DNA from: Prorocentrum cordatum
Lineage: Eukaryota
DNA: 55,782 nt
Assembly: GCA_963575745.1 (NCBI GenBank)
Contig: CAUYUJ010000133.1
Coordinates: 62,001-117,782, forward strand
Reading direction: 5' to 3'
In this document: piece after piece, positions 37,660 to 55,300 of the stretch
How positions within the stretch are numbered: the stretch's first letter is position 1
Layout of the letters: each line of letters starts with the position of its first letter
Notes under the pieces: model-generated
Databases searched by the model: none
Told to the model about the DNA's origin: nothing
The model's input: only the letters and a program-made list of their open reading frames with translations
Made by a program: the position numbers and the translations under genes

Positions 37660-37695
<36 letters not shown>

Positions 37696-37753
37696 TGACG
37701 ACGACCACCACCATTACCACTACCACTACTACTACTACTACTACTTACTATTG

Positions 37754-37793
<40 letters not shown>

Positions 37794-37849
37794 CACTACG
37801 ACTACGACCACGACTACGACTACGACTACGACGACTACTACTACTACTG

Positions 37850-37893
<44 letters not shown>

Positions 37894-37917
37894 ACTACTA
37901 ATATTACTCCAACGACG

Positions 37918-37948
<31 letters not shown>

Positions 37949-38167
37949 GAACTGCTGCTACTACTACTACTACTACTACTACTACGACTACTACTACTAC
38001 TACTACTACTGCTACTACTACTACTACAACTGCTACTACTACTACTACTACTACTACTACCACTATCACTACTTTGACTGCGACTACTACTGCTACTTAC
38101 TATTACGATTACTAGAACTACTCGTATGACTACCACTAGTACTACTACTACTACCACCACCGCCACC

Positions 38168-38212
<45 letters not shown>

Positions 38213-38213
38213 G

Positions 38214-38263
<50 letters not shown>

Positions 38264-38353
38264 GCTACTAACTACTACTTATACTACTACTACTACTACT
38301 ACTACTACTTACTACTACTACTACTTACTACTACTGCTACGACTACTACTACG

Positions 38354-38387
<34 letters not shown>

Positions 38388-38612
38388 TCACTACTGTGAC
38401 TGCGACTACTACTGCTACTTACTACTACGACTACTAGAACTACTCGTATTACTACCACTACTACTACTAGTACTAGTACTAGTACTAGTACTAGTACTAC
38501 TACTACTACTACTACTACTACTGATACTACAGCAATAACACCAACAACAATACAAGCAACCGCAGCAACAACAACAGCAACAGCCAACAGCAGCAGCAGC
38601 AACAACAACAAT
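36459..38612. repeat. ~2.1-kb (CTA)n/(CGA)n microsatellite with (CAA)n edges
   Basis: Directly visible. Confidence 0.97.
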
Positions 38613-38969
38613 CATTTCACCCGTATGCCCTACGCTTCCATTAGCAGCATGCATCCATCATGATAGCCCCCCCTTCATGGGGGAGTTGTTCTTGCACACG
38701 CGCGTCTGATATTCCCTCTCCCCGATATCCCGCCCGAGGAGGTCTTGACAACAGCGCCAGCCCAGATGGCACATCGCCTTCGCAACCCCCATGCCCAAGC
38801 CTTGCTTCTAGGTGTGACGACGCCTGAGTGGCCTACAAGTAAAGGGAGAGACTTCACAACCTCTGGGAAAACCCCGCGGAGAGCCCCCAGAGCCGCTGAG
38901 AGAAACTCCAGAGCTTAGGCCCCTAGGCTTTCGACCCCTTTTGCGTCGGCTAGTCTCGAATGGCGCCTG

Positions 38970-39330
38970 GGCTCGTCGTCGTCGTCGACGCCGCCGCCGC
39001 CGCCGTCGTCGTCGTCTTCCTCCTACTCCTCCTCCTCCTCCTCCTCCTCCTCCTCCTCCTCCTCCTCCTCCTCCTCCTCCCCGCACTCCTCCTATAAAAA
39101 AATCCGTGGCCCCAGGCGTCTCCAGGAGATCACGTAGGCCCCCGACGGCCTCCAGCACGACGACGACGACGACGACGACAACGACGACGACGGCGGCGAC
39201 GACGACGGCGGCGGCGGCGGCGGCGGCGGCGACGCCACGCCCCAGGACACTAGCGAGAGCGAGGTCGCGCAAAGCAGGTGCGACAGCCCATTCAGGATGT
39301 CCAACACTGATAATTGTTAAGCGACGACAA

Positions 39331-39382
<52 letters not shown>

Positions 39383-39383
39383 T

Positions 39384-39415
<32 letters not shown>

Positions 39416-39425
39416 AACGACGACG

Positions 39426-39459
<34 letters not shown>

Positions 39460-39460
39460 C
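38970..39460. repeat. (CGT)/(CCT)/(CGA)/(CGG) microsatellites with a short duplicated unit
   Basis: GACGCCACGCCCCAGGACAC..GCGAGAGCGAGGTCGCGC occurs at ~39230 and ~39458. Confidence 0.85.
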
Positions 39461-40449
39461 GCCACGCCCCAGGACACAAGCGAGAGCGAGGTCGCGCGGA
39501 GCAGGCGCGAGAGCGCGAAAGCACATTCAGGGTGTCCAGCAATAACACTCGCTTAGGGATCAAAATTCAAACGGGACTAGAGAAGCCTGAGGGCCTCCTG
39601 GGAGCCTTGGAAAAAAAACGCTGGAAGTATCGAGCGGGAGCGTCATTGTTTCTCGGGGGTCCTGAGGCGGGAGCGCCGGTCCTGAGGTGAATAGGAAGGA
39701 AGTATCGAGTGGGAGCGCCGAGGTTGGTGGAAAGGTGGCTTCGGGTGGCGAGCAAGAGCCCCGGCCCCGAGTGAGAAAAGAGGGCAGGTTTTGGCGGACC
39801 CCCGAAACGCCTGAGGGCGAGCCAAATTTTCAAAGGAAATGCAGCCGGCGCCTGAGCGAGAGCGCGAAAGCGCACTCAGGATATCCAGCCATAAGAAAGG
39901 TTTAATAACTAAGGTTCAACAATGGCAACAGCAGTAACAACAACAATTGCATCAGCAAAGGCAACAGCGACGACGACGACAGCAGCAACAACAACAACAA
40001 CAATCAGTTTAAGACTGTTCGCTCTTATCTGCTCGAGTGTCCGTTAAAGCGTATTTCCCAAACCCTCGATACCCGCCCTCTTCGTCTTCGATCGTACCCC
40101 TTTTGGGGGGTATACCTTTCTTCTCTGCAGGCCGGGCCCCAGCAAGCGGCGGAGGGCGGCCGCGGACCGTCGGCCTGGCCAGCGGCAGCGCTGATCGGCG
40201 GCAACCCGACCCCAAGAGGGAGGGACAGGGGACCGACCACGACGACGACGACGACGACGATGACGACGACGTCGACGAGCGAAAGCGAGAGCGAGAGCGA
40301 GAACGACAGCAGGGCCACGAAGGGCACGAAGTAGGCCACGAAGGGCGACAGCGGGGACACGAAGGGAATGCGTATGGGGCCACGACGGGCGCGAAGGAGC
40401 GGGGGCCACGAAGGGCAGACGTATATTGGCCCGCGGAAGGCAAGGACGG

Positions 40450-40860
40450 GGCCCGCTGCAACGGGGCCACGAAGGGCAGCGAGGGGGCCACGAAGGGCTG
40501 CAACGGGGCCACGAAACAAAGCGAGGGGGCCACGAAGGGCTACAACGGGGCCACGAAACAAAGCGAGGGGGCCACGAAGGGCTGCAACGGGGCAACGAAA
40601 CAAAGCGAGGAGGCCACGAGGGGCTGCAACGTAGCCGCGAAGGGCAGCGAGGGGGCCACGAAGGGCTGCAACGGGGCCACGAAGGGCAGCGAGGAGGCCA
40701 CGAAGGGCTGCAACGGGGCCACGAAGGGCAGCGAGGAGGCCACGAAGGGCTGCAACGGGGCCACGAAACAAAGCGAGGGGGCCACGAAGGGCTGCAACGG
40801 GGCCGCGAAGGGCAGCGAGGAGGCCACGAGGGGCTGCAACGGGGCCACGAAGGGCAGCAA
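40450..40860. repeat. Minisatellite, 21/42-bp unit (GGGGCCACGAAGGGCTGCAAC)
   Basis: Directly visible; produces the ATKGCNG pseudo-repeat ORF. Confidence 0.92.
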
Positions 40861-43800
40861 GATCCCGATTCCTAAGTAATCTGTGAGGGAGTCCTAAGCG
40901 TGAGCGCGACTCCTGGGTGCCTGAGTGTCGGGAGCGCGGCGCTTGAGTCAATTGCGGGAAGTTCCAACGCAAGGGCGCCATTCTTGAGTAAATCGCATGC
41001 AACTCTCCAGCGGGAGCGCGACTCCAGAGCACCGAGAAAGCGATTCTTGAATAAATTGTAAGGAAGTTCCCAATAAATAAAATGCAAGGAAGTCTCGGGC
41101 GGGAGCGGGGGTCCTGGCTAAATTGTATGTAAATATAAAGCGGGAGCCGCTGTTGTTGCAAACCGCGCGCCAACGACACAGTTTGACCTTCAAGACCTTC
41201 CCTTGTAAAAAACAAGTTGCGAGCACGGGAAGGGGCACTTCAATCGAAAAAATACAATGTGCACCGGGCGGGCGGGGGCTCAACCATAATTATTCTTCAG
41301 AAATGAAAATTCAGCAACAGCAGCAGCAACAACAACAACACCGACGACAACAACAACCACAACAACAACAACAACAACAACAATCATTTAAGACTGGGGA
41401 CACTCCGTTCTCACCAGTGCCAGGGTTTTCATAGGAGGCGGGCAATACCCCCACTTTGTGGGGGGGCCGGTTCAAGCTCTACCAAATTTCCAAACGACTC
41501 TTCGCCACCACCCACACCCAGCTTCCCGCCCTATGACGTTCGGACACTTCACTTCGTGGCATGCGGACGACCGTGGCTACTATTCAGGGCCCCGCGGCCG
41601 ACGACGACGGCGTGCGCGCGCGAAGAAAAAACGAATGTGTCCCGCATGGTATTATTTGACAGGGATGATGGCCCTGGCAGGTGCGCAACCGTTGTCGCAG
41701 AAGTTCGAAAAAAAGTTGCTCGCAAAAGCCCGTTTGACAGAAATGTTTAAAAAGTGTTGGGTTTCCTACGAATCCGCAAGAGCGCGCGGGATGAGATTTT
41801 GACATTTTTTTGTTGAAAAACCATTGGTTTTTTGATGTTTTTATGTTAAAATCGCTCCGAACACTAAGCTTTTGGAAGGATTTCGTCTTGCGCGCGCGAA
41901 TGTCCACTTTACCTTATTTTTTGCAAGGGATTCTTGAAATTTGATTATATTAGAACAAGAAATGTCATTTTATAGTGTTTTTTGCAAGGGAAAGCGGGGG
42001 GGAACAAAACAACCGGATCTTGATCACATCGAATTACCTGAGGCTTCCTCACGAAAATGATGAAAATGTAGCTGCGGCCTAGGCGGCGCAGGGGGGCCGT
42101 GCACCAGGGGCCCCAACAATAATTATTCTTTAGAATTAATAATGTTCAACAACAACAACAACACCATCAATTATGACAAGGCAACAACAAACACAAACAC
42201 AAACAAACAATAACAACCACAACAGCAACAACAGCAACAACAATTGATGTAAGACTGCTTGCTGTTATATGCGCGCGTGCACTTCAACACGAATATCCCA
42301 AACCTTCGATACCCGCCCTCTTCGTCTTCGATCGCACTCCCCTTGAGGGGATATCTTCCCTATCCTGCATGACACGCGTAGTCGGCGCAACCTGGGAAAG
42401 GGGGAAGGCAGGGCGGAGGGAAGAGACAAGGGGGGGGGAGAAGGATAGAGCACGGCAGGCATTTTCAGGAGGGGGGGGGTACAGGAGTACAAACAGCAGA
42501 ATCCGAAGGGCGGGTCGGGCGGGCGGACCCTAATAGGCAAGCCGGGCGGGCGGGCCCAAACGGCCATGTCGAGCGGGCGGGTCGCTGAGGCGTCAATCCA
42601 ACATGATTCGCAAGGAAAATTCGAGCGATAGCGCGATTTCCAAATAAATCGTGTGGGAATCCAGCGTGAGAGCGTGAATCCTGAGCGTCGGGGGCGCGGC
42701 ATCTGAAAACCTTGCGAGGAAGTACCACGAGAGAGCGCGACCATTTGATAAACTATGAGGAGGTCCTGCGCTAGAGCGCGATTTTGAAATAAAATGTGAG
42801 AAGGTATCAGGCGGGAGCCGTTCTTGTTGTAGTTCGGGGAGCAACAACCCAACTTGAAGCACGAGACTTCCCCTTGTAAGACCCCGGGCGGGGCATTTGC
42901 AGTGGGAAAACAGAATAGGCACCGAAGGGGGGCATCAGCAACAATTAGTTCTCAGAGCGAACATACAACAACGACAACAGCAAAAGTAACAAAAACAACA
43001 ACAGACAATCATTATAAGACTGTTCGCTCTTACCTGCTCGCGTGCCGTTCAACATGTATATCCCAAACCCTCGATACCTGCCCTCTTCGTCTTCGATCGT
43101 ACCCCCTTGGGGGTACATCGCCCTTGCCTGCCACGTGTAGTTGGTGAGCCCCCTGAAAATGGGCAGAGAAAACGGATGGAAGAGGTAGGGAGAAGGATGG
43201 AGCACGAGAGAAATTAGCAGGATGGGGGCTAGAAGCAGAAAGCTCATGGCAGAACCAGACGGACTGATCGGGCGGCCAGACCCTAATAGGCGGACCAGGA
43301 AGGCAGGCCCAGGCGGCCATGACGAGCAGGCGGGTTGCTGAAGCGTGCGTCCTGCATGAATCGCAAGGAAAGTTGGAGCGATAGCGCGATTGCCAAGTAA
43401 ATCGCTATAAAAAGCAACAGAAAGAGAGCGATTCCTGAGCGTCGAGGGTGCGGCGTCTGAATCAATTGCGTGGAAGCACCACGCGGCAACGCGATTCCTG
43501 CATAAAGTGTGTGGAAGTCCTGCGCGAGAGCGCGAGCTGTGAGAAAATATTCGGCGGGAGCCGCTGCTCTTGTAAACCGGGGGCCAAGGGCGTAGTCCCA
43601 CCAGCCCTTTGGGCGTGAGTGGTTTAGCGAGCTTTCTCTGTTCTCAACCCCCCAACCCCCTTCTTCCCCTTCGGGGAGGGGTTTACTCCTCCCCCTACCC
43701 CCTCCCCCTGGACCTGGAGAGCGGAGCCCGCGGGTCGTCAGGGTGGTCTTTTTCGACGCCTGGGAGGGCCAAAAAACGACGACCCTCACGAGGATTCTGG

Positions 43801-44004
43801 CTCCGACGGGGGGACCCTCTTGTAGTACCCTCCTCTTCTGTTAAGCCAAAATCATTGTTTTTACGATGGTTTTGGCCCCATGTTGGCCTCCCGAGGGGGC
43901 CGCGCTCATCTTCCTTCATAGCAAAATCATTGATTTTACGAGGGTTTGGGGCTCATTTTGTCCTTTTCAGGGGGCAGCGCTTCTTTGCGCTTCTGAGGAT
44001 GTCG

Positions 44005-44094
44005 CAAGAGGCGCCAAGATGGCCCCAAGAGGCCCCCAGGAGCCTCCCAAGAGGCCTCCAAGAGGCCCCCAAGAGGCCCCCAAGAGGCCCCAAG
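44005..44094. repeat. GGCCCCAAGA satellite, left of the copia insertion
   Basis: Same ~11-mer as 52392 onward. Confidence 0.85.
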
Positions 44095-44424
44095 TGTCAA
44101 TGATAATGATGTCGAGCTGCTTTTAGCCACGAGCTGCAAGATCCGCTCGGTCGATCCTTATGAAATGAGGCTGTCCGCCTCGCACACACACAGCTTGTGA
44201 AATCAGGGAAACCCCAGTCTGTGACTAGGACACATCTGATAACTTGTTATCGCTGCTGGCTCGAAAAGGGATCCCCTGATATCGTTCGATAGCAAACGGC
44301 CGCGGAAACATAACATGTTATGTTATCCTGTTTTAAAAGCTCCACTTACCCCGGTCGGGGTACCAGTCTCTAAACTGCTGAGCTACTGCGTTTCGGCTGG
44401 GGCATAAACTCGCTCATCTTCGCA
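44095..44424 (-). repeat. 3' LTR
   Basis: Direct repeat of 52056-52391 with several substitutions and indels. Confidence 0.93.
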
Positions 44425-44580
44425 CGGAATATAAAATCTGCAGCTTCGAAACTGGAGATCAGCAGTCAAACACCGCCAATCTTAGATACAAAAAAACAGC
44501 ATACGTGAATAACCTCACGCAAAAAAAAATATGCGCCGCCGTCTGCATCTACAAAGCAAAAACGAGTTTTGAACAACCTC

Positions 44581-47500
44581 TTAGTCCACCTTGAAATTCT
44601 CAAGAATCCGCTTCACCAAATCCGCTTTGATTCCTGAAACTGGCAACGCCATCTCACGCAGCATGCCCTGCAAAGCGTAGACCGGCATGGCCTCCAGCTT
44701 CTTCTTGACGTCCGGTGGGTTGTAGCTGTGCATGGCAGTGAGGTCGTCTAACTTTTGCGCAGCAATACTCGGTAGTCGCTTCAGTCCGCTGCTTGGTACT
44801 GTATATGAAACCATCTCCTGTGAGCTGGCTGGACGTGAAACCGCAACGGCTGTAGGTCCAGACTCAGGTTTGTTAAACTGCTGCGAAATCATAAACAAGA
44901 GTACACAAATCAAAGCCATAAATGCTGCACCAATTGAAATACCTGCTGCAAAAGTCCCTACCGGTGATAGCACAAACTGAGACCACTGATCGAAAGGCTC
45001 GGCTAAAACATATGTTGAAACTTGTTGGCCGATCACTGGGTCCGTAGTTGCCACCGCTGCGGTAGCTGCTGCTAGTTGAGGTAATGTCGTTCCCGATGAA
45101 GAGCTGCTTGCCAAAACGCTGGAAAACAGAGCTGCACGCGCAAATCGAGAAAACTTGGTCGAAATAGCTGTACTCACTTCAGCCTGGTAGACCACTTCAT
45201 GTACGTCAATCCTCGATATGTCGTCGTCCGCGCTGTGGTCCTTTGGCTTGGCGTAGTTCGCATTCAGGTAGTCAGCGTCCTCTTGAACCTCAACTCGCTG
45301 TGCCCGCTGGATCTCGTCCCACGGATCTGTCAGCTTCCGCTTCCTGAGTGAAGGGGCTCGGGGGTCCGGTCCAAACGTCCACAAGTTCTCGTGAAAAACT
45401 CGGTCCTGGTAGGGTGTGTCCATCTTCTTCGTGAGTCCGTCGGCTAGCTGCTGCTCAGATCGCACCCACTTAATGCCACCATGCTGGCACTCCTGTCTGA
45501 TGATCGCTGCTTCCAGCGAGAGACGTCGATCTGACAAGTGAACACGCTCCTTGACCACACAGTCCCACAGAGAACGGCAGTCCGTGACCAAAACACCTTT
45601 CCACTCTTCGGCTGCCTGACGGTACTCATGACCTAGCTTGTTGGCTGAGAAGATGTCGGCGCATACAGCACGTGTCCAGAACGTGACATCCTGAGCCTCA
45701 GAACAACTGTAGGCCTCCGCCGAAAGGGTACTCCGCACAGCACGTCCAATGCGTCCACTTGACCAAGCCAGTAACATACATGGATAAAGCTTGGTGTGGT
45801 CATCTGTCATAGCGCCATCTCCCACCATGATGTAAAACCCGCGCTGGCTCTTGTGGTTCGGCATGTTGTCGAAGGATGCGTCGTGCGATGCGATAATAAC
45901 GGAGGTCTCGAAGTCGAAACCACCACGGAAGATCATCTGCGTCTTCCCCTCTCGTCGGATAGAACGCACAAGGCTATTCATGTCCTTCATGTCCTGCACC
46001 GTCGGCTTAGACATCTGGCCCGCGAGCCTCGATGCCTCGAAACTGTACTTGTGAAGCAGCAACCGCACCACCCACTGAACTTGACCGTTCATACCACGTA
46101 GTGCGCGGTGCTCGGCTGCGGTGAGAAGCTCCTTCTCCTGCTTCGCCCTCTCCCGGGGCATGCGGTAGTCCGTCATCCCGTCGATGTACTCGTCCATGTC
46201 GATCGTGATGACGTAATCCTCGTCCTGCTTGAAGCGCCGGCCTGTGAAGGTAGCTCCCTCAGGTAGGCCCTGCAGTTCGTGCCAGTCGCCGAACTCGACC
46301 TGCTCCTTCATCTGCTTGATGACCTGCTCGCAGAACTCTCGGTTCTTCTCCATGTCGAAAGCCATGAGCATGTCGTCGACGTGCAGGCAGAGAAGCCCCA
46401 CCAGCTGCCCATTGTGCATGAGCTTGAAGGCTGCGGTCTCGAACTGCAGCTGCTCGAAGCCGATCTGCTTGAGGATCTGGACAATCCGCTTGTACCACGC
46501 CCTCGCCGCGTCGTTGGTACCGTAGATGCTCTTGTTGAGCTTGAGCAAGCTCCCGTCTTCTAGCCCTGGAATGCTCATGCCAGGCATGTTCTTGGGCAGT
46601 TTGAAGTACAACTCCCTCTCGATCTTGACGCCCTGCAGGAACGCCCCTGTGGCGTCACCTGTGAAGCACGAGAACCGCTTACACGCCGCGATGCTGCAGA
46701 GAAGGTTCTGCATGAATGGTGAGCATGTCGGTGAGTCTCGGCGTAGCTTCTCGTCGTATTTCTCTTGGAAGCCCTTGCCCACGATGCGGCACTTAGGCTG
46801 GAAGTTGGCATTGTCGTCGCTGCCTTTGTTTGTCCAAACTGCACGGCTCTCGATCTGCAGCGACTTGTCGATCTTCTTGGCCATCGTCGGTGTGATGACC
46901 GTCACCGCGTCGTACTTTGTCCAAGTACTCCACTCCTTGATGAGGGCATTGAGACACTTCTCAGTGCGCTCCTTCGTGTAATTGTCGCTGCGCTTCAGCA
47001 CCTCCTTAATGTCCATCTCGCCCTTGGTTGCCCGGTCGGCTCGTTCGGCTGCAAACGACTCGCACATCACCTGGTTGGTCGCATAGGCTGTGCGCACCCT
47101 CTTGTCATTCGCCGTCGTCACAGTATTGCGGCCAATGTGGGCCCGATTCTGGTAGATGGTCTGAGATGCCGGCGTCTTGCGCTTGAGCTTAGTACGCCGT
47201 TGTTCGCCCTCCTCACGATGTGCTTGTTGTCTGGCTCGCTGTCGTTGTCGAGCACTGTCTCCATCAGAATCTGCCGTAGGACCTGCAGGCGTACTGCTGG
47301 TGGGTGCGCTGCTCGCTGCTGGAGGATCGGCCCTGGCCGTAGCCGGGTTGTCTGGTCCGAACGACTGAGGAGGTCCTTGAGGTTCGGCACCTTCTGGAAA
47401 ACCTCCAGGAGCCCGTCCGCCCGATGGGTCATTCTCGGTCCGGTACGTGTACTCCACCACGACGTCGAGCATGTCCATATCGCGTACCAAAGGCACGTCG

Positions 47501-49818
47501 AACGGCACGTCCAGGTTGTTGCGCGCCAGGTCTTCCATCATCACCTTCGTGTTGTAGTTGAAGATCCGTCGTCGTAGCAACCTGTCTCGAGGAATGATTT
47601 CATTCTCGGGTACTGGTGTTGTCGTACATCGTGCAATCCTGGTCGCTAAGATGGCATCGTATGGTCCACGAGCCTGTGAGCCGATGATCATAGCCCACGA
47701 CTCTGGGATACTCCACGATCCTTCAGGCCATTCAGCTTCCACTCGTCGCCGTTGTGCAGGAGGCTGTCCAGCCACGTCAGCATCACGACTTTGAACTCCG
47801 TCCATGTCTTGCTCCTGAACTGCTGCTGGAGGTACTGAATCTGGTGGCTGATCTGATGGCTGCTCTGGTGGCTGTCGTGGTTGTAGCCCAGGTTGTAGAG
47901 GCTCTCGTGGTGCTGTGAACGTGGTGTTCCGTAGGTCCACGAAACCGCGCTGCCCATGTGGAACTCCTTGCCATTCGCGCTGATCTCCAGGAATGCGATC
48001 CTCGATCTCGTTTAGCGTCGACCTCCGGAGGATGTTCGGCCCTGCCAGGATCGGGATGCCGTTGTGGATCAGCCAGTAGCCAAACTGGTCCTTCCCAATC
48101 ACGCGCGCTGGTCCTTGCCATTTGCGATGTAGATCTCGCTTTCCTCCTCCCGTACGCCAGTAGTGAACCCACTCGCCGCGCTCAAAAGGTCCAGGCTGAG
48201 GTCGCGTCTTCGATAGCACCGCTCGTCGTAAGGCTGAGCTGTTGGCCGCTTGGTGAAACGCGACCTCACAAGCTTCTTGAAGCCGTAGGCGATGCCACAT
48301 CAGAGATCCGTGTGAAACTTGCCCTGCTACCACAGGGTCGGTATTGATATCTCCAAGTGATGCCGGTAGTGAAGGATTCTCGCCAAGGACCCACTGGGCA
48401 GGAGAGAAGCCCTTGTTGTTCGAAAGGCGGTCCATGGTCTGAGCAATCTGGTATCCGGCGATCTTGGCGCTTTCGTCGTCCTTCACCTCGAGCTCACGAA
48501 AAACCTTCGTGGCCATCTCCTTGAAGAAACGAATCTTCCGTTCCACTTTACCATGTTGATGGTGCTCTTCTGGGGCAACTGGAATACATGGTACACCAAG
48601 ATCCTCACACATAGCCTCAAAATCCAGACGAAAAGCTGCGTCTTGATCAATCTGAAACCGCTGTGGGGTCAGTAGTGTCCGCTGCCAGCCCTCCACGAAT
48701 GCCGTCTTCGCATGACTGGAAGTCGGGCTCGGCTTGCGGTTACCACCGCTGATCATCCACTGGATGGCGGTGTAGTCGGTCGCCAGGTCCAGCATGAGCA
48801 GGTAGGCGTGCATGTTGCCGTTCAGGTCGGGCACGTAGGCGATGTCCATACCAAGGCACTGGTTGAACTTGGTCCACTTCGGCAGGCTGGCGATTGGATG
48901 AGCTGGCGGTCGTTGTTGAGAATCGCACAGCTCGCACTTGAATAGCTTCGCCGCTGAAGCCGCCGCCGGTGATCCTCCACCTGCTTGTATATGTCGTGCT
49001 AGGTCTTCGCCTCGTAGTGCATGCGAAAACTGAACGTGAAGCTTCTTGATCGCCGCCTTGAGTGCTGCTGGTACCTGCTGCCATTGTTGGTAGGTTTCAG
49101 CCGCTGAGCCCATGATGAGCCCTGAGCTTGACGTAAAACCTGTAGCGGGGTATGCGTCAGTGGCGTCGGGGATGCCCAGGATGATGTCACCACCCAGAAG
49201 CTTCTCCAACTCGTACTGCTGCTTCGTGCCTTCGAGGATCCTTTCCGCCAAGTCCGGGGTCCATACTGCGAACTCGCTGGATTTTCCTCCTCGACCTTGA
49301 ACTTCTCCATGTTCGTGGTCACCTGTGCATCGTACTTCCAGTGCATATGCCAATGCCACTGCTGTCGTAACAAACCTCGTAGGCTTCTGCAGCAAATCTC
49401 CACGATCGTCTCGTAGTTCGAAAGCACATTGATCGCATCGAACCCAGATCATCTCCTGAGGTAGCTCGTCCTTGATGAGCTTCCAGACCTGTGAGCACAG
49501 GGGGTTCTCCAGTAGTACGTGTCGTCCATGCTCCAGTCTGTGCTTGACGATCTGTAGTGCAAACCGCACGTGTGCGAGCGCCTTCGTGCGACGTCGTCGC
49601 CGCTCCTTCTCCGGGTAGAAGTTGTTGATTGGCGAGAGCCCCTCGCACGGGAACGGCACGATAGTGAGGTACGGGTTCTCCTCCTCGATTTCTCGCATCG
49701 TAGCTGCCTGTACACTTGGTAGTAGCAAGTTGTCGCCCGTCGTCCGCAGGTCTTTGCACTTGCCCGTCTTGAGTCCACAGCTGGTTGCGAGCTTCGTGAC
49801 GTTGCACTCTCCGCCATA
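44581..49818 (-). CDS. pol: Copia pol: MTase-like domain, integrase, RT, RNase H, TM helix, SAP domain
   Basis: LHVQFSH...CELC Zn finger; GMDI/IDQD/VERK DDE triad; KCRIVGKGF, KSIYGTNDAARAW and LHVDDML RT motifs; HDASF, STLSAEA, TDCRS and QLADGLTK RNase H motifs. Open for over 1700 codons. Confidence 0.93.
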   Translation of the reverse strand, partial: YGGECNVTKLATSCGLKTGKCKDLRTTGDNLLLPSVQAATMREIEEENPYLTIVPFPCEGLSPINNFYPEKERRRRRTKALAHVRFALQIVKHRLEHGRHVLLENPLCSQVWKLIKDELPQEMIWVRCDQCAFELRDDRGDLLQKPTRFVTTAVALAYALEVRCTGDHEHGEVQGRGGKSSEFAVWTPDLAERILEGTKQQYELEKLLGGDIILGIPDATDAYPATGFTSSSGLIMGSAAETYQQWQQVPAALKAAIKKLHVQFSHALRGEDLARHIQAGGGSPAAASAAKLFKCELCDSQQRPPAHPIASLPKWTKFNQCLGMDIAYVPDLNGNMHAYLLMLDLATDYTAIQWMISGGNRKPSPTSSHAKTAFVEGWQRTLLTPQRFQIDQDAAFRLDFEAMCEDLGVPCIPVAPEEHHQHGKVERKIRFFKEMATKVFRELEVKDDESAKIAGYQIAQTMDRLSNNKGFSPAQWVLGENPSLPASLGDINTDPVVAGQVSHGSLMWHRLRLQEACEVAFHQAANSSALRRAVLSKTRPQPGPFERGEWVHYWRTGGGKRDLHRKWQGPARVIGKDQFGYWLIHNGIPILAGPNILRRSTLNEIEDRIPGDQREWQGVPHGQRGFVDLRNTTFTAPREPLQPGLQPRQPPEQPSDQPPDSVPPAAVQEQDMDGVQSRDADVAGQPPAQRRRVEAEWPEGSWSIPESWAMIIGSQARGPYDAILATRIARCTTTPVPENEIIPRDRLLRRRIFNYNTKVMMEDLARNNLDVPFDVPLVRDMDMLDVVVEYTYRTENDPSGGRAPGGFPEGAEPQGPPQSFGPDNPATARADPPAASSAPTSSTPAGPTADSDGDSARQRQRARQQAHREEGEQRRTKLKRKTPASQTIYQNRAHIGRNTVTTANDKRVRTAYATNQVMCESFAAERADRATKGEMDIKEVLKRSDNYTKERTEKCLNALIKEWSTWTKYDAVTVITPTMAKKIDKSLQIESRAVWTNKGSDDNANFQPKCRIVGKGFQEKYDEKLRRDSPTCSPFMQNLLCSIAACKRFSCFTGDATGAFLQGVKIERELYFKLPKNMPGMSIPGLEDGSLLKLNKSIYGTNDAARAWYKRIVQILKQIGFEQLQFETAAFKLMHNGQLVGLLCLHVDDMLMAFDMEKNREFCEQVIKQMKEQVEFGDWHELQGLPEGATFTGRRFKQDEDYVITIDMDEYIDGMTDYRMPRERAKQEKELLTAAEHRALRGMNGQVQWVVRLLLHKYSFEASRLAGQMSKPTVQDMKDMNSLVRSIRREGKTQMIFRGGFDFETSVIIASHDASFDNMPNHKSQRGFYIMVGDGAMTDDHTKLYPCMLLAWSSGRIGRAVRSTLSAEAYSCSEAQDVTFWTRAVCADIFSANKLGHEYRQAAEEWKGVLVTDCRSLWDCVVKERVHLSDRRLSLEAAIIRQECQHGGIKWVRSEQQLADGLTKKMDTPYQDRVFHENLWTFGPDPRAPSLRKRKLTDPWDEIQRAQRVEVQEDADYLNANYAKPKDHSADDDISRIDVHEVVYQAEVSTAISTKFSRFARAALFSSVLASSSSSGTTLPQLAAATAAVATTDPVIGQQVSTYVLAEPFDQWSQFVLSPVGTFAAGISIGAAFMALICVLLFMISQQFNKPESGPTAVAVSRPASSQEMVSYTVPSSGLKRLPSIAAQKLDDLTAMHSYNPPDVKKKLEAMPVYALQGMLREMALPVSGIKADLVKRILENFKVD

Positions 49819-51877
49819 TCTCCTTGACCACCGTCCCAGGTACAAACAGTCGGTGCTGGTCTCTGCGTAGCACGCTCCAGGTCGCCTTCTGCTCCTGAGC
49901 GTAGTCCGCGATCCAGGCGTCCACCTGCTTCTTCCTGGACTTCGTCATGATGCCAGTGTCGTCCACCTCGGTCGTGATCTTCTCGATGGCCGCTGAGACG
50001 TACTTCACCTGATCCTCCTTCTCGGCTGCCCACACGTCCAGCGTCTTCGTGCTGATAGTCGGTGCCTCGATCTGTGTAGGCTCCTTGGGAAAGTCGGTGA
50101 TGTTGATCATCAGGTGGTTCTTCTTGGAACGCGTGATCTTCACGGGCTGGTCGGATATACTCTTGAACACCACCTGGTTGCGCTTGACGTTGATGACTGC
50201 CTCCAGGGCGTCCATCTGGTCCACGCTCATGAGCATGGGCGCATCTGAGTTTGGTAGTCTCTCAAAGTTGAGAGTGCAGTCCCGTCCTTGGATACCGCTT
50301 GGTACTGCTTGTGTACTCTCGGCCTTGATGGGGGCCGCGGTATTGATGCCCTTGAAGATCGTCTGAGTGGGCATCCGAAGGTCTGCCAAGTCAAACTTCT
50401 CAAGATGGCTGTCGATCGCTCTGTCACCGCCGCATGGTGCCAAGGCTGCCGTGTCCAAGACCACGTAGCCAGGGGGTACCACCTGGCTTATCGCCATCGC
50501 GTCGACCATTCCGTCGTCAATCTCGTTGATCGTAGTGGTCACCTCGTCGGTGTAGTTCTGCGTCGGCTCGATCATGTATACCTCGGTCGGCTGGCCAACT
50601 CCGGTCGCAAGCATGGCGGCCGCTAGTCCAGTACGTGCCAGAAAACCTCCAGCGCGTCCACCACGTCCTTTACACTTGCCACGTCCGCTGGCTGCTGAGG
50701 CTCTGGCCTGTGGTGCCGTCTTCTTCGTCTTGCTGCACTCCGGGTCACCCGCCCAGTGTCCTGTCTCTCCGCAAGCTCTGCACTTGCTTGCTTTCTGGAA
50801 AGCCCCTAGCTTGTCCTGGAGCTCCTTCGAGCCGAAGCTGATCTTGCCGTCGAAGTCGATGTAGGTCTTGCCCTGTTTGAACCCTCGGTTCGTCTTTCCG
50901 TCCTTCATGAACTGACGCTGCCGGGTGTAGTTTGATGATGAGCTCGCTCCTTTTCCACGTCCGCGTCCTTTTGCTGCGATAGCTCCACCTAGTTTCTGGG
51001 CCTCGGAAGCGAACGTCTCCACCTCCTCGTCACCGAGGTCGTCCAGGTCCACGATGAGCATGGCCGTCTCGAGCTCCTCCACTTCAGCTGATAGAGCTTC
51101 CATTTCTGCAGCGTCGTCCTCGTCCTCGTCTCCACTTGCTTCTGCCTCTTGCTCTCCCTCATCTTCCTCCGGGTCTGCACCGAAGGCTGCATTCCACCGA
51201 AACTTCCGTCCATGATGCTGTTGTCGGTTCGATCCTCGGGCGTCGACGTTGTCGAGCTGGATCTCCAATACTTCGCAAATGGCGTCCCAATCGTACTCGT
51301 TCTGGGCTTGTCCCAAGAATGTTTTGTGCTGAGCCTCGGTGATGCCGCACATGTCTAGCAGAAAGAATGTTCGTAGATCTTCTGAAACTTGTGTCTTACC
51401 ACCTGTCAAGTCTCGAAGCTTCTCGTAGGCGTCGGTCCTTCGCTGGATGAAACCCTTGATCTGCTCATTTGGCCTTCTGTGTCCGCGCTTGAAGTAGTCC
51501 AAGAACGCTTTATGTTTCTGCAGTGGTGCCACTTTCTCGCAATGTGAGCGTACACACTTGATGAGCATGTCGAGTGCCTCCTCGATCGCATCCTCCTTCT
51601 CTGTCGTTGTGCTGCCTTTCTTGAAATACTTGTTAAGCGCTGCCACGCTGATCTTCTCGTCCTTATGGCATAGTGTCCAGGCCCTGTCCGTCAAGCTGTT
51701 TTTGACTTTCGCAACGAAACCCTTTTTCTTCTCCAAGGTGTCCACGCCTAGAAAGCCCAAACGAACTCGCTCGTCCCATTCTTCTGCTGCTGCTGCGTCT
51801 CCGTCGTAGCATGGTGTGCCATCCTTGTCCAACCACACATGTTGGTTAGCTCCGCGTCGTTTTTCTGAGAAAGCCAT
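49817..51877 (-). CDS. gag: Copia gag-protease portion of the polyprotein (up to the frameshift)
   Basis: ATG 51877 (MAFSEK). Zinc knuckle CRACGETGHWAGDPEC at 50734-50783; aspartic protease VVLDTAA near 50450. The ORF-track frame continues to 49319, but it is out-of-frame text after VVKEI. Confidence 0.88.
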
Positions 51878-52040
51878 TTTGAGCGTGTAGGGGTCGGTGA
51901 GGTTGAGCTCGTAGTGATAGTCCGAGAACTTGTTCTCGTTAGTGTATGAACTGCCTGACCGCGAGGAACAGGTCTTTGAGATATGAAGGAGTGTCAAGAA
52001 ACTGAACCAATACAAAAGCATAGGCCGTCTCGAAACACAA

Positions 52041-52054
52041 GCTCCGCACTACCA
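52041..52054 (-). promoter_or_regulatory. Primer binding site
   Basis: TGGTAGTGCGGAGC lies 1 nt inside the 5' LTR and is complementary to a tRNA ...ACCA 3' end. Confidence 0.8.
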
Positions 52055-52055
52055 G

Positions 52056-52391
52056 TGTCAATGATAATGATGTCGAGCTGCTTTTGGCCGCGAGCTGCAA
52101 GATCCGCTCGGTCGATCTTTATGAAATGAGGCGTATGCCTCGCACACACAGCTTGTGAAATCAGGGAAACCCCAGTCTGTGACTGGAACACATCTGATGA
52201 CTTGTTATCGCTGCTGGCTCGAAAAGGGGATCCCCTGATATCGTTCGATAGCAAACGGCCGCGGAAACATAACGTGTTATGTTATCCTGTTTTAAAAACT
52301 CCACTAACCCCGGTCGGGGTACCAGTCTCTAACGGGGCGCGACTACTGTGCGTTTTGCGTCTGGGGCAACAAAACTCGCATCATCTTCGCA
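52056..52391 (-). repeat. 5' LTR
   Basis: TGCGAAGATG...CATTGACA on the minus strand; direct repeat of 44095-44424. Confidence 0.93.
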
Positions 52392-55300
52392 CACGAGGCC
52401 CCTCCTAAGACCGCCCCAAGACGGGCCCAAGAGGCTCCATAGGGCCCCAAACCAGCCCAAGAAGGCCCCCAGACGCCACCAAGGCGCTCAAGACAGCCAA
52501 GGGGCGCCAACGAGCACGGCCCAAAATGGTTACCTGCAAACGAACCGTAACATAGTCTAGCCTTTCGCCCCAAGACGCTCCCAGGAGGCCCCCAGAGCCC
52601 CCCAATAAGCCCCAAGAGGCCCCCAAGAGGCGTCCCAAGAGGCCACCGGGAGGCGAAAATCATTAATTTCCTATGGGGAGAAGTACATTTTTGGCATGCA
52701 AGGCGTTTCGGCTTTCGCTGCGTTGAAGACGCTCCAAGAGGCCCCCAAGACCGCCCCAAGACGGCCCAAGAGGCTCCCAAGAGGTCCACAAAACGGCCCA
52801 AGAGGGCGTCAAGACGGCCCAAGAGGCGCCCAAGACGGCCCAAGAGGGCCCCAAGACGGCCCCAAGAGGGGGGCCACGAACCGAAAAGTCTAGCCTTTCG
52901 CCACAAGAAGCTCCCAGGAGGCCCCCAGAGCCCCCCAAGAAGCCCCAAGAGGCCCCCAAGAGGTTCCCAAGAGGCCTCAAAAGGCCCGACAAGGTGGCCC
53001 ACCAATATACTCCCAGAAGGGCCCAGAGACGAGGCAAGATAGAGACAGGCGATCGGTAACTAGCAAAAATAAGCTCTTCACACCAAGGCTCCCAAGAGCG
53101 AACGGTGACGTACACAAGCTGATAAGACCAAGGCTCCAGCAGAGAGCGGTGACGTAACAAGTTCCTGACACCAAGGCCCAGCCAAGGCTCAGGAACGGGC
53201 GGCAACGCAACAATCTCTGAACACCAAGGCTCCCAAGAGCGAGGGGTGACGTAACAAGCTCTCAACGCCGAGGCTCCCAGTACGAACGGTGGTGTGAGTA
53301 ATTTCGGTTTCTGTTTCTGAAGCGCTCTTTCCGTTTCTGTGCCGGGCCAGGTAACGGAAAGAAGGGTGGGGTTCCAGGGGAGGGGGGTAGCGTGCGGAGA
53401 TGGGCGTTAATGGCAGTTTTGAGGGTTTTCCCTAGGGCTTTTGTATGTTTTTCGGGTTTCACTTGTTTTCCGTCCCAGAAGAGCCCAAGACAGGCCCAAG
53501 ACAGGCCCAAGACTGCCCAAGAGGCCCCCAAGAGGCCCCCAAGAGGCGCCCAAGGGGCGTCCCAAGAGGGCCCCAAGAGGCCGAAATCATCGATCTTCCA
53601 TAGGAAAACGTGCATTTTTAGCATCTGCGGCTTTGTCGGCTTTCACGGCGTTGACGACGGCCCAAGAGGCCCCCAAGACCGCCCCAAGACGGCCCAAGAG
53701 GCTCCCAAGAGGCCCCCAAAACGGCCCAAGAGGGCCCCAAGACGGCCCCAGATGCGCTCAAGACGGCCCAAAGCGCAGCGGTCGCCCAAGATACGGCCCA
53801 ACAGGGGGCCTACGAACGAAAATTCTAGCCTTTCGCCCCAAGACGCTCCCTGGAGTCCCCCAGAGCCCCCCAAGAAGCCCCAAGAGGGCCCCCAAGAGGC
53901 GTCCCAAGAGGCCACCGGGAGGCGAAAATCATTGATTTGCTACGGGAAAGGTACATTTTTAGCATGTAAGGCTTTTCGGCTTTCACGGCGTTGACGACGG
54001 AGGCCAATAGGGCCCTGCCCCCAAACCCTCGCCCCCCCAAGAACGGCCCAAGACTGCTACCATGGTCCCCCAAACGGCCCAAGAGCGGCGTCAAGACTGC
54101 CCAAGATATGGCGCCCAATTAACGCCCCCAAATGAGGGGAGGGGCTTCCCCCCAAGACGGCCCCAAGGTGGGCCACGAACCAAAAGGTCTACGCCTTTTC
54201 GCCATACAAAAGCTCCCAGGAGGCCCCCAGAGCCCCCCAAGAAGCCCCACGAGGCCCCCAAGAGGTTCCCAAGAGGCCTCCAAAAGGGCCCGACAAGGGC
54301 CCCAATAGGACTCCCAAGAAGGCCCAGAGACGCCAAATAGAGAGCGATCGGTACTGCAAAAAGCTCTTCACACCAAGGCTCCCAAGAGCGAACGGTGACG
54401 TAAACAAGATGATAAGACCAAGGCTCCCAGCAGAGAGCGGTGACGTAACAAGTTCCTGACACCAAGGCCCAGCCAAGGCTCAGGATCGGGCGGCAACGCA
54501 ACAATCTCTGAACACCAAGGCTCCCAAGAGCGAGGGGTGACGTAACAAGCTCTCAACGCCGAGGCTCCCAGTACGAACGGTGGTGTGAGTAATTTCGGTT
54601 TCTGTTTCTGAAGCGCTCTTTCCGTTTCTGTGCCGGGCCAGGTAACGGAAAGAGCGAGGTACGAGTGATGACGTTCTGGTGTGGGCGAAGCCCTAAAGGG
54701 AGGGGTTCCAGGGGAGGGGGGTAGCGTGCGGAGATGGGCGTTAATGGCAGTTTTGAGGGTTTTCCCTAGGGTTTTTGTATGTTCCGTCCCAGAAGAGCCC
54801 AAGACATGCCCAAGACAGGCCCAAGACTGCCCAAGAGGCCCCCAAGAGGCCCCCAAGAGGCGCCCAAGGGGCGTCCCAAGAGGGCCCCAAGAGGCCGAAA
54901 TCATCGATCTCCCATAGGAAAACGTACATTTTTAGCATCTGCGGCTTTGTCGGCTTTCACGGCGTTGACGACGGCCCAAGAGGCCCCCAAGACCGCCCCA
55001 AGAAGACCCAAGAGGCTCCCAAGAGGTCCCCAAAACGGCCCAAGAGGGCGTCAAGACGGCCCAAGAGGCGCCCAAGACGGCCCAAGAGGGGGACCACGAA
55101 CCGAAAAGTCTAGCCTTTCGCCCCAAGACGCTCCCAGGAGGCCCCCAGAGCCCCCCAATAAGCCCCAAGAGGCCCCCAAGAGGCGTCCCAAGAGGCCACC
55201 GGGAGGCGAAAATCATTAATTTCCTATAGGGAAAAGTACATTTTTGGCATGCAAGGCTTTTCGGCTTTCATTGCGTTGAAGACGCTCCAAGAGGCCCCCA

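What the first reader, a model, noticed from the sequence alone, without database searches (positions are those of the whole stretch)
44581..45330. Copia Pol ends in a hydrophobic segment, transmembrane helix and SAP DNA-binding domain
Seen: about 250 in-frame residues after RNase H, containing RFARAALFSSVLAS, a TM-like VGTFAAGISIGAAFMALICVLLFMI (44887-44960) and a terminal LEAMPVYALQGMLREMALPVSGIKADLVKRI that fits the SAP consensus. Known: copia Pol normally stops after RNase H, and TM plus SAP/LEM-type folds occur in inner-nuclear-membrane chromatin tethers. Inference: the tail may anchor the element at the nuclear envelope, which would matter in closed-mitosis dinoflagellates, or be an env-like module.
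Basis: partly seen in the sequence, partly recalled or inferred. Interest (0 to 1): 0.75.

Follow-up and report, generated by a model that had tools for sequence, protein, structure and literature searches.

The report
Copia retrotransposon Pol with membrane-SAP tail
A dinoflagellate copia-type retrotransposon carries, fused to the end of its polymerase, an extra piece with one membrane-spanning helix and a SAP DNA-binding motif, and its relatives carry different membrane-spanning tails at the same place.

Summary
The 1787-codon Pol frame (44581-49944) of an LTR-bounded copia element (about 44093-52392) runs 249 codons past RNase H. That tail has an acidic linker and a mildly hydrophobic Ala/Ser stretch that is not membrane-grade. 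It has one strong membrane-type helix (44887-44961), the only one in the polyprotein, then a Pro-rich linker and a C-terminal SAP motif (44593-44691; Pfam 27.3 bits, cut-off 23.9). A sister copy in a public run keeps the tail open. Prorocentrum cordatum-labelled fragments match it, and a 37-38%-identical fragment keeps helix plus SAP, with SAP the best-conserved part. All 8 closer polyprotein relatives found (44-47% identical in RT-RNase H) also have post-RNase H tails with 2-3 membrane-type segments. These are followed by a charged, heptad-patterned region instead of SAP, with no sequence likeness to this tail. Two distant relatives have no tail. So a membrane-anchoring Pol tail marks a clade, and SAP is one lineage's distal domain. 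Function is inferred. Nuclear-envelope tethering is untested and topologically awkward with a single helix. The nearest precedent is the Sirevirus ENV-like gene. In passing: a C5-DNA-methyltransferase-like fold lies between protease and integrase.

The parts
52054..52392 (-). 5' LTR (upper end approximate)
   Evidence: Direct repeats D15, D17 and D18, spacing about 7960, 96-97% identical. Alignments: 299 matches, 31 mismatches, 10 gap columns over the whole LTR. The first 60 bases are the most diverged.
49319..52048 (-). gag-protease frame (909 codons, stop to stop)
   Evidence: Weak zf-CCHC hit, 17.1 bits, below the cut-off of 20.8. Its start resembles the start of the 2500-aa relatives by eye.
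49815..49830 (-). place where the reading frame passes from gag-protease to Pol (approximate)
   Evidence: The two frames overlap over 49319-49944. DNA read. Five relatives of 2530-2597 aa (P0029-P0033) read gag through Pol as one frame.
44581..49944 (-). Pol frame, 1787 codons plus stop (P0001)
49159..49827 (-). C5-DNA-methyltransferase-like domain between protease and integrase (side observation)
   Evidence: Alignment A3. AF2 model of relative P0029 with mean pLDDT 73.5. Foldseek gives 33 hits at E<=1e-3. VIA-align Z 11.4 to M.HhaI, with 50 of 50 listed rows C5 DNA methyltransferases or one carboxymethyl variant.
47995..49158 (-). integrase region
   Evidence: Weak rve hit, 14.4 bits, below the cut-off of 32.6, upstream of RT. 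The HHCC-like and acidic motifs were read by eye.
46183..46857 (-). copia-type reverse transcriptase (RVT_2)
   Evidence: PF07727, 73.3 bits, residues 1030-1254.
45331..46104 (-). RNase H region, ending in the ...SEQQLADGLTK motif (residue 1497 onward)
   Evidence: Assigned by position and by alignment to relatives. No Pfam or PDB sequence hit. The motif reading is recalled knowledge of copia RNase H.
45163..45330 (-). tail part 1: acidic linker (tail residues 1-56)
   Evidence: Conserved at 74-86% in fragments P0005 and P0007.
45043..45162 (-). tail part 2: mildly hydrophobic Ala/Ser-rich stretch (tail residues 57-96)
   Evidence: KD19 maximum 0.78. 31 of 40 identical in P0004 and 17 of 35 in P0009.
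44974..45042 (-). tail part 3: pre-helix stretch with the motif PF..(W/F)S.FVL.P.G (tail residues 97-119)
   Evidence: The motif is shared with the 37-38%-identical fragment P0010.
44887..44961 (-). tail part 4: membrane-type helix VGTF...LFMI (P0001 residues 1662-1686)
   Evidence: KD19 2.59, the only stretch of 1.6 or more in Pol. 5 of 2000 shuffles reach it. AF2 helix at 123-152. A hydrophobic stretch lies at the same place in P0010.
44692..44886 (-). tail part 5: Pro-rich linker (tail residues 149-213)
   Evidence: The post-helix region is 9.3% Pro and has no Pro-free 35-residue window. It holds 8 of the 11 changed codons in the sister copy.
44593..44691 (-). tail part 6: SAP motif (tail residues 214-246)
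   Evidence: PF02037, 27.3 bits against a cut-off of 23.9. 24, 30 and 25 of 37 identical in P0010, P0008 and P0026.
44581..44583 (-). stop codon of Pol
   Evidence: P0085 ends on the same last residues.
44093..44425 (-). 3' LTR

Best explanation
The 249 codons after RNase H are a real, element-encoded accessory module of a Prorocentrum-type Ty1/copia retrotransposon. They are the local form of a clade-wide feature, a membrane-anchoring tail on Pol. Shown: the tail is in frame with Pol and lies inside the LTRs. It contains one membrane-grade helix and a SAP motif. Diverged copies keep the helix and SAP, with SAP conserved best. All 8 closer relatives found carry unrelated-in-sequence tails with 2-3 membrane-type segments at the same position. 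Inferred working: the tail is translated as the end of Gag-Pol. When the hydrophobic helix emerges it takes the chain to an endomembrane (the ER, which is continuous with the nuclear envelope). There it holds Pol, or a tail fragment released by the element's protease, at that membrane. The distal soluble domain then supplies a lineage-specific contact. In this lineage that is a SAP motif binding DNA or another nucleic acid. In the relatives it is a coiled-coil-like region for protein contacts. The likely use is to concentrate replication or assembly at a membrane and bring the complex to DNA. Which membrane, which side SAP faces and whether the tail is cleaved off are all open.
For: Pfam SAP scores above its cut-off, and RVT_2 is present in the same frame. 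The TM-grade stretch is unique in the 1787 residues and rare in shuffles, 5 of 2000. The LTRs bracket the tail. A 1400-base contig in run X1 spans 44230-45628 with 32 other letters and 5 gaps. 15 of the listed differences fall in the tail. None of the 12 listed indel rows falls in 44584-45330 (15 further rows were not shown). Listed changes are 13 in 354 non-coding bases against 15 in 747 tail bases. Pieces of the tail occur in contigs of 4 runs from 4 studies. The representative search found 23 hits at E<=1e-3. Nine of them (P0003-P0009, P0012, P0013) are short fragments at 54-90% identity to parts of the tail. P0010 is 38% identical (37% by tblastn) and covers helix plus SAP. By region, SAP is 24/37, 30/37 and 25/37 identical in P0010, P0008 and P0026. 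The linker before it is 13/51, 10/29 and 16/45, and the helix is 7/29 in P0010. P0085, labelled Prorocentrum cordatum, ends on the same residues. In all 8 relatives P0027-P0034, every KD19>=1.6 stretch of the whole protein lies 100-190 residues after the RNase H end motif. The 2 distant relatives, P0035 and P0036, end 59 and 85 residues after that motif with no such stretch in the tail. The relatives' tails stay open and of similar length while diverging faster than the core: 65-75% against 89-91% identity in 4 close pairs, and 21-28% against 57-63% in 4 distant pairs.
Against: Against the one close sister copy the tail shows 3 synonymous and 12 non-synonymous changes, pN/pS 1.25. The adjoining RNase H part shows 3 synonymous and none non-synonymous (Fisher p 0.025). 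So over that short distance most of the tail evolved without visible constraint; only SAP is untouched. Fragment P0006 changes frame just before the helix, and P0004 and P0005 stop matching this frame in the hydrophobic stretch or helix. The gene models P0026 and P0086 lack the hydrophobic stretch and the helix. There is only one membrane-grade helix. With Pol in the cytosol, SAP would then face the lumen, where there is no DNA. The SAP score is only 3.4 bits above the cut-off, 0.2 bits on the whole Pol. P0010 scores 23.0, just under it. There is no sequence likeness between this tail and the relatives' tails: best BLASTP E 1.3, hhalign probability 0.2%. The shared architecture may therefore be convergent. 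The window's copy is itself imperfect, with a frame change between gag-protease and Pol, and LTRs 91% identical overall. TM prediction rests on hydropathy and a poor single-sequence model. No dedicated topology predictor was available.
Confidence: 0.45

Rival explanations
1. Nuclear-envelope chromatin tether. The helix sits in the inner nuclear membrane and SAP holds chromosomal DNA. This guides the pre-integration complex to chromatin in a cell with closed mitosis.
For: SAP is a DNA-binding motif of chromatin proteins, and HeH/LEM inner-membrane tethers have a related fold (recalled knowledge). The cellular SAP protein P0024 gives a weak HeH/LEM hit, 16.5 bits, below the cut-off of 28.9; that hit is on P0024, not on this tail. 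P0024 also shows a hydrophobic stretch followed by a linker and SAP in a cellular protein; the stretch was read by eye and not scored, while its two SAP domains score 73.5 bits. SAP is the most conserved part of the tail.
Against: No localisation data. One membrane-grade helix puts SAP on the wrong side unless the weak stretch (KD19 0.78) also inserts. Relatives with TM tails have no SAP at E<=0.01, so tethering to DNA cannot be the clade's common function. The domain order (helix, then SAP at the C end) is the reverse of the HeH/LEM tethers as I recall them.
Confidence: 0.15
2. Env-like or cell-to-cell transfer module, comparable to the Sirevirus ENV-like gene or the small TM protein sORF2 of insect LTR elements. 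The membrane part is the active part. SAP is a secondary add-on, for example for nucleic-acid binding.
For: All 8 closer relatives have 2-3 TM-type segments. Of the 7 tested, all have a Pro-poor charged region whose best heptad window is reached by 0-2 of 100 shuffles (home-made score). A passage of PMC3414828 says Sirevirus ENV-like genes share little but TM and coiled-coil domains and can be expressed by stop-codon suppression, that is as an extension of Pol. The abstract of PMC11952523 describes sORF2.
Against: The window's tail has no heptad region; it has no Pro-free 35-residue window. There is no N-terminal signal peptide, because the tail is in frame behind 1538 residues. There is no separate start: the first Met of the tail lies inside the helix. 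A unicellular, thecate host offers no obvious neighbouring cell to enter. SAP has no known role in membrane fusion (recalled).
Confidence: 0.2
3. A dispensable, decaying or recently captured extension with no role in the element's cycle. The SAP came from one of the host's many SAP genes and is drifting.
For: pN/pS is 1.25 in the tail against the sister copy. Three fragments are out of frame or stop matching. The non-element hits of the representative search match the SAP part only, mostly multi-SAP proteins such as P0011 and P0014-P0016. GC3 of the hydrophobic part is 0.38 against 0.54-0.84 elsewhere in Pol.
Against: Helix plus SAP persist at 37-38% identity in P0010, with SAP at 65%. TM tails occur in 8 of 8 closer relatives and stay open across 10% and 40% core divergence. 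Differences between genomic copies of a transposon largely accrue after insertion, so a ratio near 1 is expected even for functional parts.
Confidence: 0.15
4. Artefact: a mis-assembly or a chance open frame joining Pol to unrelated sequence.
For: None found.
Against: An independent 1400-base contig in run X1 bridges the 3' LTR, the tail and the end of RNase H. Fragments P0005 and P0007 join the RNase H end to the tail start, and P0003 and P0085 join the helix to SAP.
Confidence: 0.02

Closest known systems
Sirevirus (SIRE1-type) ENV-like gene of plant Ty1/copia elements
   Same: An extra coding region directly after copia pol. It is defined by TM and coiled-coil features with little sequence similarity among elements, and it can be made as an extension of Pol by stop-codon suppression (passage of PMC3414828; review passages of PMC7264820). 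The relatives P0027-P0033 fit this description.
   Different: Here there is no stop between Pol and the tail. The host is a dinoflagellate, whereas that paper calls Sireviruses plant-only and the only Copia genus with such a gene. The window's tail has SAP instead of a coiled coil. No sequence relation was tested against Sirevirus proteins.
SAP as an accessory domain of other transposons (Chlamys-1_pPol Penelope-like element of Physarum; Zisupton DNA transposons)
   Same: A SAP motif recruited into a transposon protein, presumed to bind DNA (passage of PMC8557442).
   Different: There it sits inside RT or in a transposase, without a membrane helix. Here it is the C-terminal end of a copia Pol, behind a TM helix.
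Targeting domains on LTR-element proteins (chromovirus integrase chromodomain, Ty5 integrase targeting domain)
   Different: Those sit on integrase. In copia order the end of Pol is RNase H, and here a membrane helix intervenes.
Inner-nuclear-membrane HeH/LEM tethers (Heh1/Src1, MAN1, LAP2, emerin)
   Same: A SAP-like helix-extension-helix DNA/chromatin motif combined with membrane anchoring (recalled).
   Different: The order is reversed (motif first, helices later, as recalled). They are cellular proteins and are not fused to a polymerase. The tail gave no HeH hit in Pfam.
sORF2 of Drosophila MDG1-group LTR retrotransposons
   Same: A short TM protein encoded by an LTR element beyond gag-pol (abstract of PMC11952523).
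   Different: It is a separate small ORF in Ty3/gypsy elements, fusogen-like, with no SAP. Likeness to this tail was not tested.
Cellular hydrophobic-stretch plus SAP protein cluster P0024 (7 members, unnamed, ENA)
   Same: The order hydrophobic stretch, Pro/Ser/Lys-rich linker, SAP. It matches tail residues 153-245 at E 6.2e-4.
   Different: It has two SAP copies and an N-terminal hydrophobic start, with no Pol. The likeness outside SAP is low-complexity, and its hydrophobic stretches were read by eye only.

Membership tests
Ty1/copia LTR retrotransposon | Two long terminal repeats bracketing the coding region | tested here: met
   About 333-339 bases each, 7960 apart, 96-97% identical over the 3' 280 bases and 91% overall.
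Ty1/copia LTR retrotransposon | Copia-type reverse transcriptase (RVT_2) | tested here: met
   PF07727, 73.3 bits against a cut-off of 31.6.
Ty1/copia LTR retrotransposon | Integrase upstream of RT | tested here: inconclusive
   rve 14.4 bits, below the cut-off of 32.6, at residues 361-452 of Pol, upstream of RT. The motifs were read by eye.
SAP domain (PF02037) | Profile score at or above Pfam's gathering cut-off | tested here: met
   27.3 bits (tail) and 24.1 bits (whole Pol) against 23.9, covering profile positions 4-36 of 37. Sister P0008 scores 33.6 and P0010 scores 23.0, just under.
SAP domain (PF02037) | Two helices separated by an extended loop with the conserved Gly | tested here: inconclusive
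   The single-sequence AF2 model gives helices at 217-227 and 235-245 around LPVSG, but with pLDDT of about 48-59. Register matches to the SAP structures 2kvu_A and 2rno_A are weak, E 0.17 and 0.65.
SAP domain (PF02037) | Binds DNA | not testable with these tools
   Needs a binding assay.
Sirevirus ENV-like gene | TM segment(s) in a coding region after copia pol | tested here: met
Sirevirus ENV-like gene | Coiled-coil region | tested here: not met
   The window's post-helix region has no Pro-free 35-residue window. 7 of 7 relatives tested do show a heptad window, reached by 0-2 of 100 shuffles (home-made score).
Sirevirus ENV-like gene | Member of the plant Sirevirus lineage by RT phylogeny | not tested
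   No tree was built. Labels on the relatives point to dinoflagellates.
Retroviral/errantiviral Env | Own signal peptide, surface and TM subunits, separate (spliced) expression | tested here: not met
   The tail is in frame behind 1538 residues of Pol with no stop. Its first Met lies inside the helix. No Env family appears in Pfam at E<=10.
Inner-nuclear-membrane HeH/LEM tether | HeH/LEM profile match | tested here: not met
   No PF12949 hit on the tail at E<=10.
Inner-nuclear-membrane HeH/LEM tether | Localisation at the inner nuclear membrane with the motif in the nucleoplasm | not testable with these tools
   Needs imaging and topology mapping.
C5 DNA methyltransferase (side domain 49159-49827) | Methyltransferase catalytic fold with the order of motifs I, IV, VI, VIII, X | tested here: met
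   The model is of relative P0029. VIA-align Z 11.4, rmsd 3.4-3.6, 177-185 of 215 residues aligned to M.HhaI 12-326. All 50 listed rows are C5 DNA methyltransferases or a carboxymethyl variant. Foldseek E about 1e-4 but TM-score only 0.34-0.43. The motif reading (CGxGGG, FPC, ENP, KPTR, WTPxLA) is by eye on A3.
C5 DNA methyltransferase (side domain 49159-49827) | Pfam DNA_methylase profile match; target-recognition domain; activity | tested here: not met
   No Pfam hit on P0001 at E<=10 or on the relatives at E<=0.01. A profile of A3 finds no PDB relative. The model spans HhaI 12-326 with only 215 residues, so the recognition domain seems absent. The window's copy has a shortened motif I. Activity is not testable here.

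The most novel reading that the evidence does not exclude
A dinoflagellate clade of copia elements makes Pol with a C-terminal membrane anchor. This would be a protist counterpart of env-like genes, with exchangeable distal domains. In the Prorocentrum lineage the SAP version sits in the nuclear envelope and holds chromosomal DNA, giving the element a route to permanently condensed chromosomes in a closed-mitosis nucleus. The same elements also carry a cryptic C5-methyltransferase-like domain, so they may both reach and mark host DNA.
Probability: 0.12. Interest if true: 0.8.

Novelty: new variant of a known kind. Interest (0 to 1): 0.6.

Why it matters
Accessory modules tell how retroelements solve host-specific problems. 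A passage of a 2012 paper calls Sireviruses the only Copia genus with an ENV-like gene (PMC3414828). A membrane-anchored Pol tail in dinoflagellate copia elements would be a second, independent case. It would occur in genomes where copia elements are reported as the most abundant retrotransposons (passage of PMC5890265) and as heat-activated (whole text of PMC5776459). TM plus SAP on a polymerase is a combination I found in no paper. The seven searches were made, over open PMC and bioRxiv only. The supplements of PMC5776459 and PMC5890265, which may show domain maps, were not seen. The module gives a testable handle on where reverse transcription and integration take place in cells with liquid-crystalline chromosomes. 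The methyltransferase-like domain, if real, bears on the published statement that Symbiodinium Copia lack any DNMT domain.

Tried and rejected
No whole genome is held for the window, so copies could not be counted.

The window holds no second copy of the element: tblastn of P0001 finds only itself.

PDB sequence searches found nothing usable. The whole tail gave 0 hits at E<=10. The RNase H region gave 0 hits. A profile of A3 gave only chance-level hits.

Pfam on the tail of relative P0029 gave only DUF5439, at E 4.3.

The ESM Atlas gave no usable hit for P0002 or for the tail of P0028. Three earlier tries did not complete.

With P0002, 131 pattern matches were found but none was confirmed by tblastn.

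Sequencing runs: no RNA holder was listed, so nothing can be said on expression. Depths from contigs were not used to compare parts of the element, as one search's own text warns against it.

Earlier findings of this scan: three look-ups, nothing shown.

The single-sequence AF2 model of the tail was too poor (mean pLDDT 50.8) for a fold search, so none was run on it.

Long-protein search for the tail found only P0026, a chimeric gene model. The search among shorter proteins gave 7 fragments.

I considered separate expression of the tail by splicing or trans-splicing and rejected it for this copy, because no Met precedes the helix.

I considered sequence homology between this tail and the relatives' tails and rejected it: BLASTP E>=1.3, hhalign probability 0.2%.
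Full report
WHAT IS THERE

The finding's interval is coding on the minus strand. Window 44581-49944 is one open frame of 1787 codons, and the plus strand of the interval is closed by many stops. Direct repeats about 7960 bases apart mark LTRs at about 44093-44425 and 52054-52392. They are 96-97% identical over the 3' 280 bases, and 299 matches to 31 mismatches over the whole length.

Between the LTRs lie a 909-codon gag-protease frame (49319-52048; weak zinc knuckle) and the Pol frame. Pol contains a copia-type RT (RVT_2, 73.3 bits). A weak integrase match lies upstream of RT. An RNase H region was assigned by position and by alignment to relatives.

The stop of Pol (44581-44583) lies 155 bases before the 3' LTR, so the tail is part of the element. 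The element sits in arrays of an 11-base repeat.

THE TAIL

The last 249 residues (P0002) read, in order:
- an acidic linker;
- a mildly hydrophobic Ala/Ser-rich stretch, KD19 maximum 0.78, not membrane-grade;
- a short conserved motif;
- one strongly hydrophobic helix, VGTF...LFMI (44887-44961);
- a Pro-rich linker;
- a C-terminal SAP motif (44593-44691).

The helix scores KD19 2.59. It is the only stretch of 1.6 or more in all 1787 residues, and 5 of 2000 shuffles reach it. SAP scores 27.3 bits on the tail and 24.1 bits on the whole Pol, against Pfam's cut-off of 23.9. Two of the three weak PDB hits for the last 60 residues are SAP structures aligned in register. A single-sequence AF2 model is poor (mean pLDDT 50.8), but it makes the hydrophobic stretch its most confident helix.

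SISTER COPIES

No genome is held and the window has no second copy. The representative library gave 23 hits at E<=1e-3:
- Nine (P0003-P0009, P0012, P0013) are short fragments at 54-90% identity to parts of the tail.
- P0010 is 38% identical and covers the pre-helix motif, a hydrophobic helix and SAP.
- The rest match SAP only, mostly multi-SAP proteins.

Labels on these fragments are Prorocentrum cordatum (NCBI) and 'Pyramimonas sp. CCMP1952' (EukProt), sharing one 90% cluster. P0085 ends on the window's last residues.

Contigs from four public runs of four studies hold pieces of the tail. One 1400-base contig bridges the 3' LTR, the whole tail and the RNase H end with 32 differences and 5 gaps. 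Of the listed differences, 13 fall in 354 non-coding bases, 15 in the 747 tail bases and 3 in 298 RNase H bases. None of the 12 listed indel rows lies in the tail (15 rows were not shown).

In the tail, 3 changes are synonymous and 12 (in 11 codons) are not, pN/pS 1.25. In the RNase H part all 3 are synonymous, Fisher p 0.025. Eight of the 11 changed codons are in the Pro-rich linker, and SAP has one synonymous change.

Fragment P0006 changes frame before the helix, and P0004 and P0005 stop matching this frame in the hydrophobic stretch or helix. So decayed copies exist, as in any transposon family.

Across diverged fragments SAP is the best-kept part: 24/37, 30/37 and 25/37 identical in P0010, P0008 and P0026. 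The linker before it is 13/51, 10/29 and 16/45, and the helix is 7/29 in P0010.

RELATIVES

A search with RNase H plus tail found 11 long proteins. Eight of them (P0027-P0034; five of these are 2530-2597 residues with gag through Pol in one frame) are 44-47% identical to the window in RT-RNase H (for the four compared). One of their clusters holds a Breviolum minutum protein, and the rest are unnamed.

In all 8, every KD19>=1.6 stretch of the whole protein lies in a tail of 318-491 residues counted from the RNase H end motif, with 2-3 such segments each. The two distant relatives (26-27% identical) end 59 and 85 residues after the motif with none in the tail.

These tails have no SAP at E<=0.01, no other Pfam family in the one tested, and no likeness to the window's tail (best BLASTP E 1.3, hhalign probability 0.2%). 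After the last helix they are Pro-poor and rich in E, R and Q. In 7 of 7 tested, the best heptad window is reached by only 0-2 of 100 shuffles. That score is home-made, so this is a hint of coiled coil, not a prediction. The window's post-helix part is 9.3% Pro and has no such window.

The tails diverge faster than the core yet stay open and similar in length. Close pairs are 65-75% identical in the tail against 89-91% in the core. Distant pairs are 21-28% against 57-63%.

READING

What is conserved across the clade is a membrane-spanning part placed about 100-190 residues behind RNase H. What follows it differs by lineage. I therefore read the tail as a membrane-anchoring accessory module of Pol, with SAP as this lineage's distal domain.

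The mechanism is inferred. The tail is translated as the end of Gag-Pol. The helix targets the chain to the ER and nuclear-envelope membrane system. SAP then contacts DNA or another nucleic acid.

The weak points are three:
- Constraint is near-neutral over the one short comparison available.
- There is only one membrane-grade helix, which would put SAP in the lumen if Pol stays in the cytosol.
- There is no expression or localisation evidence.

The env-like reading fits the relatives better than it fits this copy.

COMPARISON WITH WHAT IS KNOWN

The nearest precedent is the Sirevirus ENV-like gene of plant copia elements. It is described as sharing little but TM and coiled-coil domains, as expressible by stop-codon suppression, and as unique among Copia genera (passage of PMC3414828; passages of PMC7264820).

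SAP has been reported as an accessory domain in a Physarum Penelope-like element and in Zisupton transposons (passage of PMC8557442). A small TM protein drives cell-to-cell transfer of insect LTR elements (abstract of PMC11952523).

The paper on heat-activated Symbiodinium copia elements, read in full, lists only integrase, RT, RNase H and LTRs (PMC5776459). Seven searches of open PMC and bioRxiv turned up no report of a TM or SAP tail on copia Pol. Subscription journals and the supplements of the two Symbiodinium papers were not seen.

SIDE OBSERVATION

Between protease and integrase the window and its relatives share a domain of about 215 residues with no Pfam match. An AF2 model of relative P0029, built from a 7-sequence alignment, has mean pLDDT 73.5 and pTM 0.75. 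It matches C5 DNA methyltransferases: Foldseek gives 33 hits at E<=1e-3. VIA-align gives Z 11.4 to M.HhaI over 177-185 residues at rmsd 3.4-3.6, and all 50 listed rows are of that kind.

Strings resembling motifs I, IV (FPC), VI (ENP), VIII and X are visible by eye. The span leaves no room for a target-recognition domain, and the window's copy has a shortened motif I next to the frame change. A passage of PMC5890265 states that Symbiodinium Copia lack any DNMT domain. This deserves its own study.

VERDICT

The module belongs to the element and has clade-wide counterparts. It is a new variant of the known theme of accessory or env-like modules in LTR retrotransposons. Its function is open.

Noticed in passing
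window 49159-49827 (minus); also P0029-P0033, P0035, P0036: A domain of about 215 residues between protease and integrase has no Pfam hit. A predicted structure of relative P0029 matches C5 DNA methyltransferases (VIA-align Z 11.4 to M.HhaI; Foldseek E about 1e-4). FPC and ENP strings sit where motifs IV and VI would lie. There is no room for a target-recognition domain, and motif I is shortened in the window's copy. A published passage says Symbiodinium Copia lack DNMT domains.
   Followed up: partly
window about 49815-49830 (minus): gag-protease and Pol are in different, overlapping frames here, while five relatives of 2530-2597 aa read straight through. This is either a defect of this copy, an assembly error, or frameshifting used by this lineage.
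   Followed up: partly
window 43985-44098 and 52562-55571: The element is flanked on both sides by arrays of an 11-base repeat (CCAAGAGGCCC-like). Contigs of run X1 pile up on 44000-44100 at a summed word depth of about 159,000, so this satellite is extremely abundant.
   Followed up: no
window 37362-41239: Long low-complexity arrays (9-, 12- and 21-base periods) give open frames of poly-V, poly-S, poly-Y, poly-L, poly-T and poly-R in several frames on both strands.
   Followed up: no
window 44365-44425 and 52330-52392: The first 60 bases or so of the LTR (minus-strand sense) are far more diverged, with indels, than the remaining 280 bases (96-97%). Yet the 1787-codon Pol frame has no stop, which is unexpected if LTR divergence measured age alone.
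   Followed up: partly
window 44584-49944 (minus): Third-position GC varies widely along Pol: 0.84 in RT, 0.54-0.64 elsewhere, and 0.38 in the hydrophobic part of the tail.
   Followed up: no
P0026 (2264 aa) and P0086 (868 aa), labelled Prorocentrum cordatum: These gene models read through an internally deleted copy of this element family, with a pre-RT piece, the RNase H end, the tail start and SAP but no hydrophobic part. On either side they are joined to sequence with many hydrophobic stretches and, in P0026, to a long Cys-rich region. They are probably chimeric annotations.
   Followed up: no
P0003/P0085 cluster: A protein labelled 'Pyramimonas sp. CCMP1952' in EukProt shares a 90% cluster with a Prorocentrum cordatum protein. 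Several other fragments of this element carry the same EukProt label, so the label or the culture may be mixed.
   Followed up: no
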